From: a virus
Reading direction: 5' to 3' (one strand)
Length of the DNA stretch: 64,000 bases
Virus record (IMG/VR): IMGVR_UViG_3300021425_000008
Location: 77,062-141,061 of that record
Positions 59,248 to 63,981 of this stretch are shown here, in pieces. How positions within the stretch are numbered: the stretch's first letter is position 1; every line of letters begins with the position of its first letter. The notes beneath the pieces are model-generated. The model did not search any database, had not been told where the DNA came from, and worked only from the letters and a program-made list of their open reading frames with translations. A program made the translations under genes and the position numbers.

Positions 59248-59474
59248 TTAAACTAGAATTAGATGTAAGACAAGCAGCATCCATTCGTCAGGTGCTATAT
59301 AAAGAACAGAGTATTTACACATACGATCCTAAATGTGTTCCTCCACGTATCGTTGACATTCGTGAAGTCATCGGTTCATTGGATACTCAGATCGAGGCTG
59401 AACTCGAAGAAGCTGCAAAAAAAATTCAAAAGCTTGAGGAGGAAGCAGCACCAGACTACGGAGTTGGGAAGTGA
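59244..59474 (+). CDS. Hypothetical protein
   Basis: GTGA overlaps at both ends; AGGAGG SD. Confidence 0.7.
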   Translation: MIKLELDVRQAASIRQVLYKEQSIYTYDPKCVPPRIVDIREVIGSLDTQIEAELEEAAKKIQKLEEEAAPDYGVGK

Positions 59475-59911
59475 AACAGGTACACATCTGTCAATTATTT
59501 GATGATGGTATCTGGGAGGATAGAGCTGAAGACTGGCGTATAAAACCAGATTGTGATTCTGTTCTTTTTCTTAAGTACATTGAGGAATATCTAGTTCCCG
59601 AAATATTACAAACTATTTGTTTTGACAAAGTAATTCATACGTCTGAAATTTTGTATCCTGATTTGTCATTGGATAACTGTATTTGTTGTAATGGAGTTAA
59701 ACATAAGTTGTGTAACATCAATAAACCAGTCATTGTTGTTCACAACATGCCTAACCCATACAACAAAGAATACAAACTTATTGACGGAAAACACAGATTC
59801 AATAAAATGCGTAGTATGGGGATGACAGAATCCAAGATGTACGTCCTTGAGTTTGAAGAGATTAAACATCTATTCAAAGACATTAATCACAATAAGTATA
59901 TTAAAAAATGA
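59471..59911 (+). CDS. ParB/sulfiredoxin-like domain protein
   Basis: PVIVV...YKLIDGKHR signature. Confidence 0.7.
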   Translation: MKQVHICQLFDDGIWEDRAEDWRIKPDCDSVLFLKYIEEYLVPEILQTICFDKVIHTSEILYPDLSLDNCICCNGVKHKLCNINKPVIVVHNMPNPYNKEYKLIDGKHRFNKMRSMGMTESKMYVLEFEEIKHLFKDINHNKYIKK

Positions 59912-60603
59912 CATACGACTTTTCTTTCGCACATTCACCAGAAGGATTCGATAATCACATCGACAAATCTATTCGGGGGTACTCAAACCTTCTCGATGAC
60001 ACTGTATCGTTCTCTCGATACTTCGTAGAAGATCATACCAAAGTCGTTGATGTGGGTTGTTCTACTGGTAAACTGACCAAGATGATCCTTGCCAATAATC
60101 AGTCTCGTAAACAAACTCAATATGTAGGTGTTGAACTTGCTGGTGGGTTCTATGATGACTTGGATGAGAGATACAAAGAGATCCGTAAAGACTACCCTTG
60201 GGCGATTCTGGATTTTGTTCGTGGTAATGTCACCAACTATGAGTTCAAAAACTGTTCTCTGGTGACATCATTGTTCACTCTTCAGTTCATGCCAAAGACT
60301 ACTCGTCAAGATACAATCAATAAAATTTATGAGGGTCTGAATGAAGGTGGGGCATTCATCTTTGCAGAGAAGTTGATGTGTGAGAATGCGTTCTTTCAAG
60401 AACTACTGACATTCAACCACTATGACTATAAAAGAAAATCATTCACTGCAGATGAGATCATGGACAAGGAGAAAGAACTACGTGATATGTTGAAACCAAA
60501 TACTTGGGAAGAACTCAAGTCTATGATATGGTGTGCTGGGTTCAGAGACTGTCAGATCTTCTGGAGAAACCATCAGTTCGTTGGAGTTATTGCTATCAAA
60601 TAA
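59908..60603 (+). CDS. cmoA: CmoA-like carboxy-S-adenosylmethionine synthase
   Basis: GYSN, DVGCSTG, FTLQF, KIYEGLNEGGAFIFAEK and HYDYKR match CmoA family motifs in order along the whole length. Confidence 0.85.
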   Translation: MTYDFSFAHSPEGFDNHIDKSIRGYSNLLDDTVSFSRYFVEDHTKVVDVGCSTGKLTKMILANNQSRKQTQYVGVELAGGFYDDLDERYKEIRKDYPWAILDFVRGNVTNYEFKNCSLVTSLFTLQFMPKTTRQDTINKIYEGLNEGGAFIFAEKLMCENAFFQELLTFNHYDYKRKSFTADEIMDKEKELRDMLKPNTWEELKSMIWCAGFRDCQIFWRNHQFVGVIAIK

Positions 60604-60707: not shown

Positions 60708-62054
60708 ATGTTATACACTAAACAAACCCCAACCATTCGTGAATTTCGTGACACGATGTATCACAAAACAGAATGTCAACCAGTAGGACAACGACTTCCT
60801 GTTTATTCAAAAGACAATGCAAAAAGCATTGGAATTATTACAACCCTCTTAGATGGATATGATATCGGAACGATTACAGTAATGAAACTGAATCGTCAAC
60901 AAAAACGTGCTGCTGCAAAAGTAAAGTTTGAATTTGAAAGTATTGATGGTGGTCACCGTAAGCGCTCTTTGTATTCATATCTACAAGACGATTTCATGGT
61001 TCGTGGGAAATATTTCTCACAACTTTCAGAAAAAGAACAAGATGCATTTCTAGACACTGAACTTTCATTCACTGTTTACAACGCACTTGATTCTGCAACA
61101 AAAGGACACATCTTTCGCACACTGAATAAAACAACAGATGTGAATTTCATTGAGATGCTTAACTCATATGGAGACATTTCAGTTGCAAACTTTATTCGTG
61201 AAACAGTTCGTACTGTCAAACAGATTGACAATGAATGCAATACTCTTTTTGAATTCACCTTGAATGCAAAAAGTGAGCCAAACTACACATACCTTTCCTT
61301 TGACAACGACCGTCTGAAACAAGACCATGCGTTTGCTCGTATTGCACATCGTTATATTCAACATCCAAAACAGTTGCTTGGTGGTTCGTCTGATACTGAA
61401 CTTGAAGCAATGTATGAAGATTCAGAATTGACAATGAAAGATATTCCAGTTGCGAAAATCAAAGCACACCTAGATTTCTTACGCAAAGTTGCAATGTATC
61501 GAAAGCAACAGTTCAAAACTGGACTTACACAGCATGACTTCAAAGCACTTTCATACCTTTACTTCTATCTTTCAGATACCTATGGTACATTTACCATTCC
61601 TGATGCAGAAGAATTTTTCAAGGCATATGCTCGTGCAAACTCATCACTAATGAATAAGGATGGAGACTATGCCGAGGTTATTCACGAACCTTCTGGTTAT
61701 AGTGTACAGGTGATGTACAAGAAGTATATTGCTGCTCCTTGGGATGGTAAAAAGATTTCTACTGCAATATCTTATCTTGTTGGAGAAATGGGTGATATTG
61801 AAGATATCATTGAAACACGAGACAACAACCGTTCTTTCACTGTAAACGAGAAGGAGGCAAAACTTGCCGAACAGAATTTTGTTTGTGCAGTCGATGGAAA
61901 AAAACTTGAGTGGGATGATGCACATGCTGCTCACATCACTGCACACGCAAATGGTGGACGTACTAAGTATAGTAACCTTGCAATGGTTCGTGCCTGTTAT
62001 AATAAAGAAATGGGTACAATAGACTTGAACGAATACAAAAAATTGTGTGTATGA
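60708..62054 (+). CDS. DUF262 plus C-terminal HNH protein (GmrSD/SspE-like nuclease)
   Basis: DUF262 motifs QR, IDGGHR and FRTLN; C-terminal HITAHANGGRT..SNL.....YN HNH-like segment; AGGAGG SD. Confidence 0.75.
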   Translation: MLYTKQTPTIREFRDTMYHKTECQPVGQRLPVYSKDNAKSIGIITTLLDGYDIGTITVMKLNRQQKRAAAKVKFEFESIDGGHRKRSLYSYLQDDFMVRGKYFSQLSEKEQDAFLDTELSFTVYNALDSATKGHIFRTLNKTTDVNFIEMLNSYGDISVANFIRETVRTVKQIDNECNTLFEFTLNAKSEPNYTYLSFDNDRLKQDHAFARIAHRYIQHPKQLLGGSSDTELEAMYEDSELTMKDIPVAKIKAHLDFLRKVAMYRKQQFKTGLTQHDFKALSYLYFYLSDTYGTFTIPDAEEFFKAYARANSSLMNKDGDYAEVIHEPSGYSVQVMYKKYIAAPWDGKKISTAISYLVGEMGDIEDIIETRDNNRSFTVNEKEAKLAEQNFVCAVDGKKLEWDDAHAAHITAHANGGRTKYSNLAMVRACYNKEMGTIDLNEYKKLCV

Positions 62055-62866
62055 TTGACATTATCCTCAGTGATATCATCTCTCAAGAAGTCCCTACAGA
62101 TGATGTGGGGATTTTGTTGTCTGGTGGTGTAGATAGTTTAAGTCTAGGGTTTGCAGCAGACCGTGCAGGTAAAAGAGTTGATGCATATACTTTTCATCTT
62201 GAAGGTGATAAGTCATATGATGCTTTGAAAGCAGAAGAAGTATCCTCTAAGTTTGGGTGGAACTGTAAGACCATTGTTGTCCCTAAAGATAATCTTGCTC
62301 AAGACTTTCTCCGTCTTGTGAAAGACTACGATTGTAGAAAGAAGACACACTTTGAGTGTACGTTTCCTTTCCTCTATGTCTTCCCTGAAATCACAAACAA
62401 GTACTTACTGAGTGGGATTGGTGCAGACGGATATTATGGTGTAAGTAAGAAAGCAATCCTTCACTTCAAAACACCAAAAGAAAAGTTCGATCAATTTAGA
62501 CGTAACTACTTCATGCCACATAATGTGACAGGATTTCGACAGATTGAACAACTGTGTAATGAAAGGGATATCAAACTCATCCACCCATATATCTACCATG
62601 ACGATGTAAAAAGTTTCTTCTTTCAATATGATTGGTTCGAACTAAACAAGCCAAAACAAAAACAGATTGTAAGAGATGCATTTGCTGATGAGTTTGGTCG
62701 TATCAAAGCGGTAAAGGATCATATCAATCTGCAACTTGGTTCAAATATTGATCACTTGTTTGAAACACTCTTAGATGATAAGATGCTAAATAATCGTGGT
62801 AGGAAGAGGGTCATGGATCTCGCCTCTGACTACGCATCATCTGGACAAGGAACACTTCCATTATGA
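62051..62866 (+). CDS. Asparagine-synthetase-like ATP-dependent amide ligase (synthetase domain only)
   Basis: LLSGGVDS PP-loop, LSGIGADGYYG, PY and KQIVRDAF; no N-terminal Cys/Ntn glutaminase domain. Confidence 0.8.
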   Translation: MIDIILSDIISQEVPTDDVGILLSGGVDSLSLGFAADRAGKRVDAYTFHLEGDKSYDALKAEEVSSKFGWNCKTIVVPKDNLAQDFLRLVKDYDCRKKTHFECTFPFLYVFPEITNKYLLSGIGADGYYGVSKKAILHFKTPKEKFDQFRRNYFMPHNVTGFRQIEQLCNERDIKLIHPYIYHDDVKSFFFQYDWFELNKPKQKQIVRDAFADEFGRIKAVKDHINLQLGSNIDHLFETLLDDKMLNNRGRKRVMDLASDYASSGQGTLPL

Positions 62867-63981
62867 AACTGCCATATAAATTACAAGACGTTTATGACGG
62901 TGAGGCTCAATCAAAGTTCACCGTGATCTCTACCTTTGCTGGTGGTGGAGGATCCTCTACAGGATATCGACTCGCAGGTGCGAAGATTTTGTGTATCAAT
63001 GAGTTCGTGGAAGAAGCTAGAAAGACATATGCTGCAAACTATCCATCAACACCGATTGTCCCTGATGACATCAAACAACTAACGGGTGGTGACTTTCTTA
63101 AGATCACAGGATTGAAACCAGGAGAACTTGATATTCTTGATGGATCACCACCATGTTCTGCATTCTCTGTTGCAGGATCTATGTGTCGTGGTGAGGGATC
63201 TAAACACTCTGATGGATGGGGTAAGACAAAGAACTATTCTGATGGTAAGAAAGTAGAAAACATCGAAGATTTGTTCTTTGAATTTATTCGTGTTGCCGAA
63301 GGTATTCAACCAAAAGTTATTGTTGCTGAGAACGTCAAAGGATTGACAATTGGTGAGGCAAAGACTTATTATGCAAAGATTACCAATGCCTTTGAGGATC
63401 TTGGTTATCTCGTCACATCAAAAGTGATGAAGTCATCTCACTACGGTGTAGGTCAGGCAAGAGAACGACTCATCTTTATCGCGGTTCGTCAAGACATCGC
63501 AGATAAGATTGGTTTGAATGTACTTACAGTATCTTCACTCTTCCCTCCCACGTCATCTAAAGATACAACCATCGGTGATATTATTGATGGAGTTGAACAA
63601 GATCCTGAGTACATTCAGGGTCTTGTCGATCATATGACAAAGAGTGGTATCTACAAAAAAGTTGTGAGTAAGATGCCAAAGGATCCTAAAAAGATTCTAT
63701 CTGGCATGGACTACCACGAGAAAGGTCATTGTTTCAATACGAAGAGGGCATCATTCTATAAACCCTCTCCGACCTTGACAGCAAGTGGTGGTCTGATACA
63801 CTGGAAGGAAGACAGAGTTCTTTCTGTTCCAGAACTTAAGCGCATTCAATCTCTCCCTGACGACTTCATTCTTACTGGCTCTCACTCACAACAAACTGAA
63901 AGAGTTGGTAGAATGGTACCTCCCCTCATGATGAAGGCAATCGCCGAAAACATTTACAAAGAAGTTCTATCTAAATTATGA
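62863..63981 (+). CDS. C5-cytosine DNA methyltransferase-fold enzyme, predicted carboxymethyltransferase
   Basis: Motif I FAGGGG, motif IV GSPPC (C98), motif VI ENV, motif VIII QARER, motif IX RIQSLPD, and motif X variant VGRMVPP. Confidence 0.9.
   Translation: MKLPYKLQDVYDGEAQSKFTVISTFAGGGGSSTGYRLAGAKILCINEFVEEARKTYAANYPSTPIVPDDIKQLTGGDFLKITGLKPGELDILDGSPPCSAFSVAGSMCRGEGSKHSDGWGKTKNYSDGKKVENIEDLFFEFIRVAEGIQPKVIVAENVKGLTIGEAKTYYAKITNAFEDLGYLVTSKVMKSSHYGVGQARERLIFIAVRQDIADKIGLNVLTVSSLFPPTSSKDTTIGDIIDGVEQDPEYIQGLVDHMTKSGIYKKVVSKMPKDPKKILSGMDYHEKGHCFNTKRASFYKPSPTLTASGGLIHWKEDRVLSVPELKRIQSLPDDFILTGSHSQQTERVGRMVPPLMMKAIAENIYKEVLSKL

What the first reader, a model, noticed from the sequence alone, without database searches (positions are those of the whole stretch)
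63889..63930. Motif X Asn-to-Arg substitution (R350) in the C5 'methyltransferase'
Seen: motif X reads QQTERVG-R-MVPP (codon AGA at 63910-63912) where C5-MTases normally have G-N-(A/S)-V, while the catalytic PC and ENV motifs are intact. Known: the engineered N374K change in the C-terminal motif X region of M.MpeI lets it use carboxy-SAM as a DNA carboxymethyltransferase. Inference: Arg350 is a natural version that pairs with the cofactor carboxylate. This residue-level evidence is independent of the gene neighbourhood.
Basis: partly seen in the sequence, partly recalled or inferred. Interest (0 to 1): 0.88.

Follow-up and report, generated by a model that had tools for sequence, protein, structure and literature searches.

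The report
Known phage DNA carboxymethyltransferase (CmoX) orthologue

Summary
ORF 62863-63981 (+) is a 372-aa C5-MTase homologue. It has an intact SPPC (95-98) and ENV (156-158), and codon AGA at 63910-63912 gives Arg350 where motif X normally has Asn.

The protein is 96.8% identical to SpCmoX of Synechococcus phage S-B43 (PDB 8YF3). Yang et al., Nat Commun 2025 (PMC12783734), showed four things:
- CmoX uses carboxy-SAM made by the phage CmoA to form 5-carboxymethylcytosine at GC sites.
- R350 takes the place of M.HhaI N304 and contacts the cofactor carboxylate.
- R350N is inactive.
- CmoY then ligates glycine to the carboxyl group.

All cofactor-contact residues are unchanged in the window. 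CmoA (94% identical) and CmoY (94%) lie next to the gene.

I tested the refutation condition independently in IMG/VR loci. Of 151 unique Arg-type enzymes, 131 have a CmoA gene in the same locus, and 19 of the 20 without one sit on truncated contigs. None of 12 Asn-type relatives has CmoA. A tree-corrected test points the same way but has too few pairs to reach significance.

The only differences from S-B43 are two extra genes inside the cluster: a 146-aa protein and a 448-aa ParB-like/HNH protein.

Verdict: already known, low interest.

The parts
62863..63981 (+). cmoX: DNA cytosine-C5 carboxymethyltransferase (C5-MTase fold), 372 aa
   Evidence: PF00145 E 1.3e-52. 96.8% identical over 372/372 residues to S-B43 CmoX / PDB 8YF3.
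63910..63912 (+). AGA codon = Arg350, at the motif X position that is Asn in SAM-dependent C5-MTases
   Evidence: Aligned to the motif X Asn of M.HaeIII and DNMT1. Equals M.HhaI N304 in the published superposition.
63145..63156 (+). SPPC (residues 95-98), motif IV with the catalytic Cys98
   Evidence: Invariant in 120 homologues. Cys98 aligns with M.HhaI Cys81.
63328..63336 (+). ENV (residues 156-158), motif VI
59908..60603 (+). cmoA: carboxy-SAM synthase, 231 aa, supplies the cofactor
   Evidence: 93.9% identical to S-B43 CmoA, which is shown to be active. Best NCBIfam hit is TIGR00740 CmoA, E 8.5e-34, below its curated cut-off.
62045..62866 (+). cmoY: Asn-synthetase-like ATP-dependent amide ligase. 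The likely true start is the ATG at 62051 (271 aa).
   Evidence: PF00733 E 2.5e-13. 93.7% identical to S-B43 CmoY from residue 3 onward. SpCmoY ligates glycine to 5cxmC.
60708..62054 (+). 448-aa ParB-like N-terminal / HNH C-terminal protein inserted between cmoA and cmoY. Absent from S-B43; its role in the system is unproven.
   Evidence: No S-B43 counterpart. No Pfam, PHROG or NCBIfam family apart from weak HNH hits. AlphaFold model pLDDT 88.9. Weak Foldseek hits to BrxU/GmrSD, the ParB N-domain and HNH domains.
59471..59911 (+). 146-aa protein upstream of cmoA. Absent from S-B43, function unknown.
   Evidence: No S-B43 counterpart. phrog_35149, unknown function, E 1.8e-20. Present at the same place in L003, L004 and L007.

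Best explanation
The gene encodes an orthologue of CmoX, a C5-methyltransferase-fold enzyme that transfers a carboxymethyl group rather than a methyl group. The neighbouring CmoA converts SAM plus prephenate to carboxy-SAM. CmoX flips out the cytosine of GC sites. Cys98 attacks C6, and the C5 carbanion takes the carboxymethyl group from Cx-SAM to give 5-carboxymethylcytosine. Arg350 replaces the motif X Asn and salt-bridges the cofactor carboxylate, which makes the enzyme specific for Cx-SAM. CmoY then uses ATP to ligate glycine to the new carboxyl group, giving 5-glycylcarboxymethylcytosine, which protects phage DNA from restriction. What is shown: the chemistry and the structure, for the 97%-identical S-B43 enzyme. 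What is inferred: that the window's copy behaves the same way.
For: 1) Identity. The protein is 96.8% identical to SpCmoX. The 12 differences are at positions 15, 17, 87, 146, 180, 216, 220, 233, 242, 253, 274 and 315. None is a published cofactor or catalytic residue; F25, E47, F48, D69, S95-C98 and R350 are all conserved.
2) Published biochemistry and the 8YF3 structure (PMC12783734). The enzyme uses Cx-SAM only, R350 contacts the carboxymethyl group, and R350N is dead. The target is GC. 5gcxmC was found in S-B43 virion DNA.
3) The same operon is present: CmoA 93.9% and CmoY 93.7% identical, in the same order.
4) Conservation. R350 is invariant in the 120 nearest homologues.
5) Independent co-occurrence test.
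- All 51 close loci with at least 2.6 kb upstream of cmoX carry cmoA.
- Over all unique viral loci, 131 Arg-type enzymes have CmoA in the locus and 20 do not; 19 of those 20 are truncated.
- None of 12 Asn-type enzymes has CmoA.
- Fisher p = 3.7e-7 on loci with at least 3.5 kb flanks, not corrected for relatedness.
- Asn-type and Arg-type enzymes retrieved by the same query split cleanly by CmoA presence.
6) Motif X Asn (M.HhaI N304 = DNMT1 N1580 = M.SssI N370) is the known cofactor-side-chain gatekeeper (PMC10666283).
Against: No experiment exists on this exact protein. The phylogenetically corrected test has only 3-5 independent Arg/non-Arg contrasts (CmoA goes the same way in 2-3, never the other way, p >= 0.25), so the co-occurrence statistic is inflated by relatedness. 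One Arg-type enzyme (L238, provirus) has no clear CmoA within 10 kb. It has only an ambiguous CmoA-like methyltransferase about 14.5 kb away: 24% identity, and TIGR00740 at 68.6 bits tied with another family. Seven of the 12 substitutions lie in the variable region between motifs VIII and IX, so identical sequence specificity is assumed and not shown.
Confidence: 0.95

Rival explanations
1. It is an ordinary SAM-dependent 5-methylcytosine methyltransferase, and Arg350 is a tolerated, functionally neutral variant of motif X.
For: All other C5-MTase motifs are canonical. Motif X is not strictly Asn in nature: a Leu-type relative (P0145) sits beside a Tet/JBP dioxygenase and a TET-associated glycosyltransferase, a context that implies ordinary 5mC formation.
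Against: The 97%-identical SpCmoX does not accept SAM at all. Arg tracks CmoA almost perfectly and Asn never does. R350 is invariant across the clade.
Confidence: 0.02
2. It is a Cx-SAM-dependent carboxymethyltransferase, but its DNA sequence specificity or end product differs from S-B43. The cause would be substitutions in the target-recognition region or the two extra genes in the cluster.
For: Seven of the 12 differences (216, 220, 233, 242, 253, 274, 315) lie between motifs VIII and IX. The cluster carries two genes that S-B43 lacks. Very close relatives pair the same CmoX with different or no ligases.
Against: The substitutions are few and mostly conservative (I/V, V/I, D/N, K/N). CmoY is 94% identical to the glycine ligase.
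Confidence: 0.03

Closest known systems
SpCmoX, Synechococcus phage S-B43 (PDB 8YF3; Yang et al., Nat Commun 2025, PMC12783734)
   Same: Both are 372 aa, 96.8% identical. They share SPPC, ENV, R350 and all the Cx-SAM contact residues. The cmoA and cmoY neighbours are the same and so is the T4-like cyanophage backbone.
   Different: There are 12 substitutions. The window's cluster has two extra genes (146 aa before cmoA, 448 aa between cmoA and cmoY). DNA identity in the shared genes is about 89%.
M.MpeI N374K and M.MedI N377K (engineered CpG carboxymethyltransferases)
   Same: A cationic side chain at the cofactor-facing Asn position lets a C5-MTase fold use carboxy-SAM (PMC12015181; PMC13288465; PMC12783734).
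   Different: The engineered enzymes carry Lys, not Arg. They target CG, not GC, and they still methylate with SAM. The natural enzyme uses Cx-SAM only. Sequence similarity is too low for HMMER to align motif X of M.MpeI to the window protein.
Canonical SAM-dependent C5-MTases (M.HhaI, M.HaeIII, DNMT1; Pfam PF00145)
   Same: Same fold, same motifs I, IV, VI and VIII, and the same covalent Cys mechanism.
   Different: Motif X has Arg instead of Asn (M.HhaI N304), and the group transferred is carboxymethyl.
CmoB (tRNA U34 carboxymethyltransferase)
   Same: It uses CmoA-made Cx-SAM, and recognition of the carboxylate by an Arg has been proposed (as cited in PMC12783734).
   Different: It is an unrelated class I methyltransferase acting on 5-hydroxyuridine in tRNA. 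No CmoB homologue is reported in S-B43.

Membership tests
CmoX (phage DNA cytosine-C5 carboxymethyltransferase, as defined in PMC12783734) | Homology to SpCmoX with the SPPC catalytic motif | tested here: met
   96.8% identity over the full length; SPPC at 95-98.
CmoX (phage DNA cytosine-C5 carboxymethyltransferase, as defined in PMC12783734) | Arg at the position equivalent to SpCmoX R350 / M.HhaI N304 | tested here: met
   AGA at 63910-63912 = R350. Aligned to the motif X Asn of M.HaeIII and DNMT1.
CmoX (phage DNA cytosine-C5 carboxymethyltransferase, as defined in PMC12783734) | Cx-SAM contact residues (F25, E47, F48, D69) conserved | tested here: met
   All are present and invariant in 120 homologues.
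CmoX (phage DNA cytosine-C5 carboxymethyltransferase, as defined in PMC12783734) | A phage-encoded CmoA (Cx-SAM synthase) in the neighbourhood | tested here: met
   cmoA lies at 59908-60603 and is 93.9% identical to the active SpCmoA.
CmoX (phage DNA cytosine-C5 carboxymethyltransferase, as defined in PMC12783734) | Cx-SAM-dependent formation of 5cxmC in DNA | not testable with these tools
   Shown only for the S-B43 orthologue.
C5 cytosine DNA methyltransferase superfamily (PF00145 / TIGR00675) | Full-length profile match above the curated cut-off, with motifs I, IV, VI and VIII | tested here: met
   PF00145 179.7 bits (cut-off 22). TIGR00675 157.7 bits (cut-off 100.65).
C5 cytosine DNA methyltransferase superfamily (PF00145 / TIGR00675) | Motif X G-N-(A/S)-V with the cofactor-facing Asn | tested here: not met
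   The motif reads G-R-M-V. This is the deviation that defines the CmoX subgroup.

The most novel reading that the evidence does not exclude
In this cyanophage lineage the cmoA-cmoY-cmoX cluster has acquired two genes that the published system does not explain: a GmrSD-like ParB/HNH protein (60708-62054) and a small 146-aa protein (59471-59911). They could work with the modification. For example, the HNH protein could be a nuclease that spares 5gcxmC-marked phage DNA while cutting unmodified host or competitor DNA, or a ParB-like factor that loads the modification enzymes. The Arg350 mechanism itself leaves no room for a novel reading.
Probability: 0.2. Interest if true: 0.5.

Novelty: already known. 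Interest (0 to 1): 0.15.

Why it matters
CmoX showed that 5-carboxymethylcytosine, once called an unnatural base, is made naturally. It also showed that one Asn-to-Arg change in motif X switches a C5-MTase from SAM to carboxy-SAM. That is useful for predicting modified phage genomes from sequence and for engineering sequencing enzymes. For this scan the value is mainly calibration: a reader without tools deduced the correct mechanism from one residue. Nothing here goes beyond the 2025 paper except two points. First, there is an independent confirmation that Arg-type enzymes travel with cmoA and Asn-type relatives do not. Second, near-identical CmoX genes sit next to interchangeable downstream cassettes.

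Tried and rejected
1) Direct alignment of motif X to M.MpeI. phmmer with the whole protein, phmmer with the C-terminal 73 residues, and a 43-sequence profile all stop at M.MpeI residue 357 or miss it. R350 = N374 is therefore not shown here by alignment.
2) A search for natural Lys-type enzymes in viral contigs, using the Lys-type representative P0137 as query. It returned only Arg- and Asn-type loci.
3) A scan with the 'GNMVPP' Asn-type representative P0258 found no viral locus.
4) Independent-pairs test on a FastTree of 119 enzymes. There were only 3-5 contrasts; the direction was consistent but not significant.
5) The one Arg-type locus with long flanks and no CmoA (L238). A whole-record search found only an ambiguous CmoA-like methyltransferase about 14.5 kb away, so this is inconclusive.
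6) The 448-aa protein. A profile search of PDB sequences found nothing, and Foldseek gave no hit at E <= 0.001.
7) I considered folding CmoX itself. I rejected this as redundant, because a crystal structure of a 97%-identical protein exists.

Full report
**Observation.** The window ends with a complete ORF at 62863-63981 (+), 372 aa. Residues 343-354 read QQTERVGRMVPP. The AGA codon at 63910-63912 is residue 350. The catalytic SPPC (95-98) and ENV (156-158) are intact, as are the motif VIII arginines R200 and R202. Pfam PF00145 matches end to end (E 1.3e-52), and NCBIfam TIGR00675 is above its cut-off.

In HMMER alignments R350 lies without gaps opposite the Asn of 'GNAVP' in M.HaeIII and 'VGNAVPP' in DNMT1. 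That Asn (M.HhaI N304 = mouse DNMT1 N1580 = M.SssI N370) belongs to motif X, which all C5-MTases share. It is the known gatekeeper for the transferable group of the cofactor (PMC10666283).

**What it is.** A search of solved structures gave PDB 8YF3 at E 1e-245. That entry is CmoX of Synechococcus phage S-B43, described by Yang et al., Nat Commun 2025 (PMC12783734). The paper shows the following:
- The phage CmoA makes carboxy-SAM (Cx-SAM).
- CmoX transfers the carboxymethyl group to C5 of cytosine at GC sites, giving 5-carboxymethylcytosine (5cxmC).
- The 1.9 A structure with Cx-SAM has R350 in place of M.HhaI N304, in direct contact with the carboxymethyl group.
- The wild-type enzyme accepts only Cx-SAM, and R350N accepts neither cofactor.
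- The Asn-synthetase-like CmoY ligates glycine to give 5-glycylcarboxymethylcytosine (5gcxmC), which is found in virion DNA (about 75% of GC sites).
- The authors state that the Arg 'mirrors' the engineered M.MpeI N374K.

**How the window compares with S-B43.** The window's protein differs from SpCmoX at 12 of 372 positions. None of these is among the published contact or catalytic residues F25, E47, F48, D69, S95-C98 and R350. The neighbours are CmoA (59908-60603, 93.9% identical) and CmoY (62045/62051-62866, 93.7% identical), in the same order as in S-B43. The window is the last 64 kb of a 141-kb IMG/VR contig from a T4-like cyanophage.

R350 is invariant in the 120 nearest 90%-cluster homologues, which are 60-98% identical. 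Among the 150 best 50%-cluster representatives, 96 have Arg, 22 Asn, 5 Leu, and single ones have Lys, Tyr, Met, Asp or Gln.

I fetched 230 or so viral loci with five different queries. I then scored each locus for the motif X residue and for a CmoA gene, using an HMM built from the phage CmoAs (minimum hit 168 bits). The results were:
- All 51 close loci with at least 2.6 kb upstream of cmoX carry cmoA.
- Over unique enzymes, 131 Arg-type have CmoA in the locus and 20 do not.
- 19 of those 20 have less than 3.5 kb of flank on one side.
- None of 12 Asn-type enzymes has CmoA.
- Fisher p = 3.7e-7 for loci with long flanks.
- Arg-type and Asn-type enzymes retrieved by the same Asn-type query split cleanly by CmoA presence.

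The caveat is relatedness. On a tree of 119 enzymes the residue changes state only about five times. This gives 3-5 independent contrasts in which CmoA goes the same way in 2-3 and never the other way, and that cannot reach significance.

There is a single exception with long flanks, L238, which is a provirus. It has only an ambiguous CmoA-like methyltransferase about 14.5 kb away. A host CmoA could also serve, as E. coli CmoA does for SpCmoX.

**What could not be shown.** HMMER alignments to M.MpeI end before its motif X. The specific equivalence R350 = N374 therefore rests on the literature and not on an alignment made here.

**Contrast case.** A Leu-type relative (P0145, 'GLMVAP') lies beside a Tet/JBP dioxygenase and a TET-associated glycosyltransferase. 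That is the known 5mC to 5hmC to glycosyl route. Departures from Asn are therefore not all carboxy-SAM adaptations. The Arg residue together with CmoA is what marks the CmoX subgroup.

**Differences from the published system.** Two genes in the window's cluster have no counterpart in S-B43.
- The first is a 146-aa protein (59471-59911; phrog_35149, unknown function).
- The second is a 448-aa protein (60708-62054). It has no Pfam, PHROG or NCBIfam family beyond weak HNH hits.
- The 448-aa protein has about 290 marine homologues, none with a Pfam domain.
- Its model is confident (pLDDT 88.9). The best, weak Foldseek matches are BrxU (GmrSD family), ParB N-domains and Cas9-type HNH domains.
- The paper notes ParBc-domain proteins of unknown role near many CmoX genes.

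Among relatives with CmoX at least 86% identical, the stretch between cmoA and cmoX is a swap site. It holds nothing, or CmoY, or a 465-aa glutaminase plus Asn-synthase protein (the commonest case), or CmoY preceded by a 315-349-aa protein of unknown function, or the 448-aa homologue plus CmoY, or the Asn synthase plus a second Arg-type methyltransferase.

**Verdict.** The paper's survey of 5,615 Arg-type sequences drew on IMG/VR, the collection this contig comes from. Novelty: already known. Interest is low. The residual interest lies in the inserted ParB/HNH gene and the cassette variability, which are separate findings.

Noticed in passing
window 60708-62054 (+): A 448-aa protein is inserted between cmoA and cmoY and is absent from S-B43. 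It has a ParB-like 'DGGHR' N-terminal part and an HNH-like C-terminus. About 290 marine homologues exist with no Pfam domain. The AlphaFold model is confident (pLDDT 88.9), and its best, weak Foldseek hit is BrxU, a GmrSD-family type IV restriction enzyme (E 1.2e-3). A 75%-identical copy sits at the same place in L033.
   Followed up: partly
window 59471-59911 (+): A 146-aa protein lies directly upstream of cmoA and is absent from S-B43. It matches phrog_35149 (unknown function). By eye it has a 'DGKHR' ParB/Srx-like motif. It is present at the same place in L003, L004 and L007.
   Followed up: partly
L005 2371-3768; L039 6143-7534; L006 1102-2106; 80 loci L003-L082: In cyanophage contigs with CmoX at least 86% identical, the slot between cmoA and cmoX is variable. 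It is empty in 6. It holds 271-aa CmoY (279 aa in one) in 15 and a 465-aa GATase plus Asn-synthase in 34. In 4 it holds a 315-349-aa unknown protein plus CmoY. In 1 it holds the 448-aa homologue plus CmoY. In 4 it holds the Asn synthase plus a second MTase. This implies different end products built on the same 5cxmC handle.
   Followed up: partly
L039 7531-8658 and 8655-9776; also L081, L120, L094: Two C5-MTase homologues lie in tandem. In L039, L081 and L120 both carry Arg in motif X; in L094 only one copy could be read at motif X. They may be paralogous carboxymethyltransferases with different sequence specificities.
   Followed up: no
L159 2914-4161 (protein P0145): A relative with Leu at the motif X position ('GLMVAP') lies next to a Tet_JBP dioxygenase and a TAGT glycosyltransferase, which is the known 5mC/5hmC/glycosyl pathway. 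Four other Leu-type representatives, and single Lys, Tyr, Met, Asp, Gln and Cys variants, also exist among the nearest cluster representatives and loci.
   Followed up: partly
L238 10001-11065 and L241 1474-2190 (same provirus record): This is the only Arg-type enzyme with about 10 kb on both sides and no clear CmoA. A 238-aa methyltransferase about 14.5 kb away is 24% identical to the window's CmoA and scores equally for CmoA and CpaM models.
   Followed up: partly
L006 1102-2106: A 334-aa protein lies between cmoA and cmoY in some relatives. It has only a weak LRAT/NlpC-P60-like Pfam hit (E 0.005) and phrog_27790 (unknown function).
   Followed up: no
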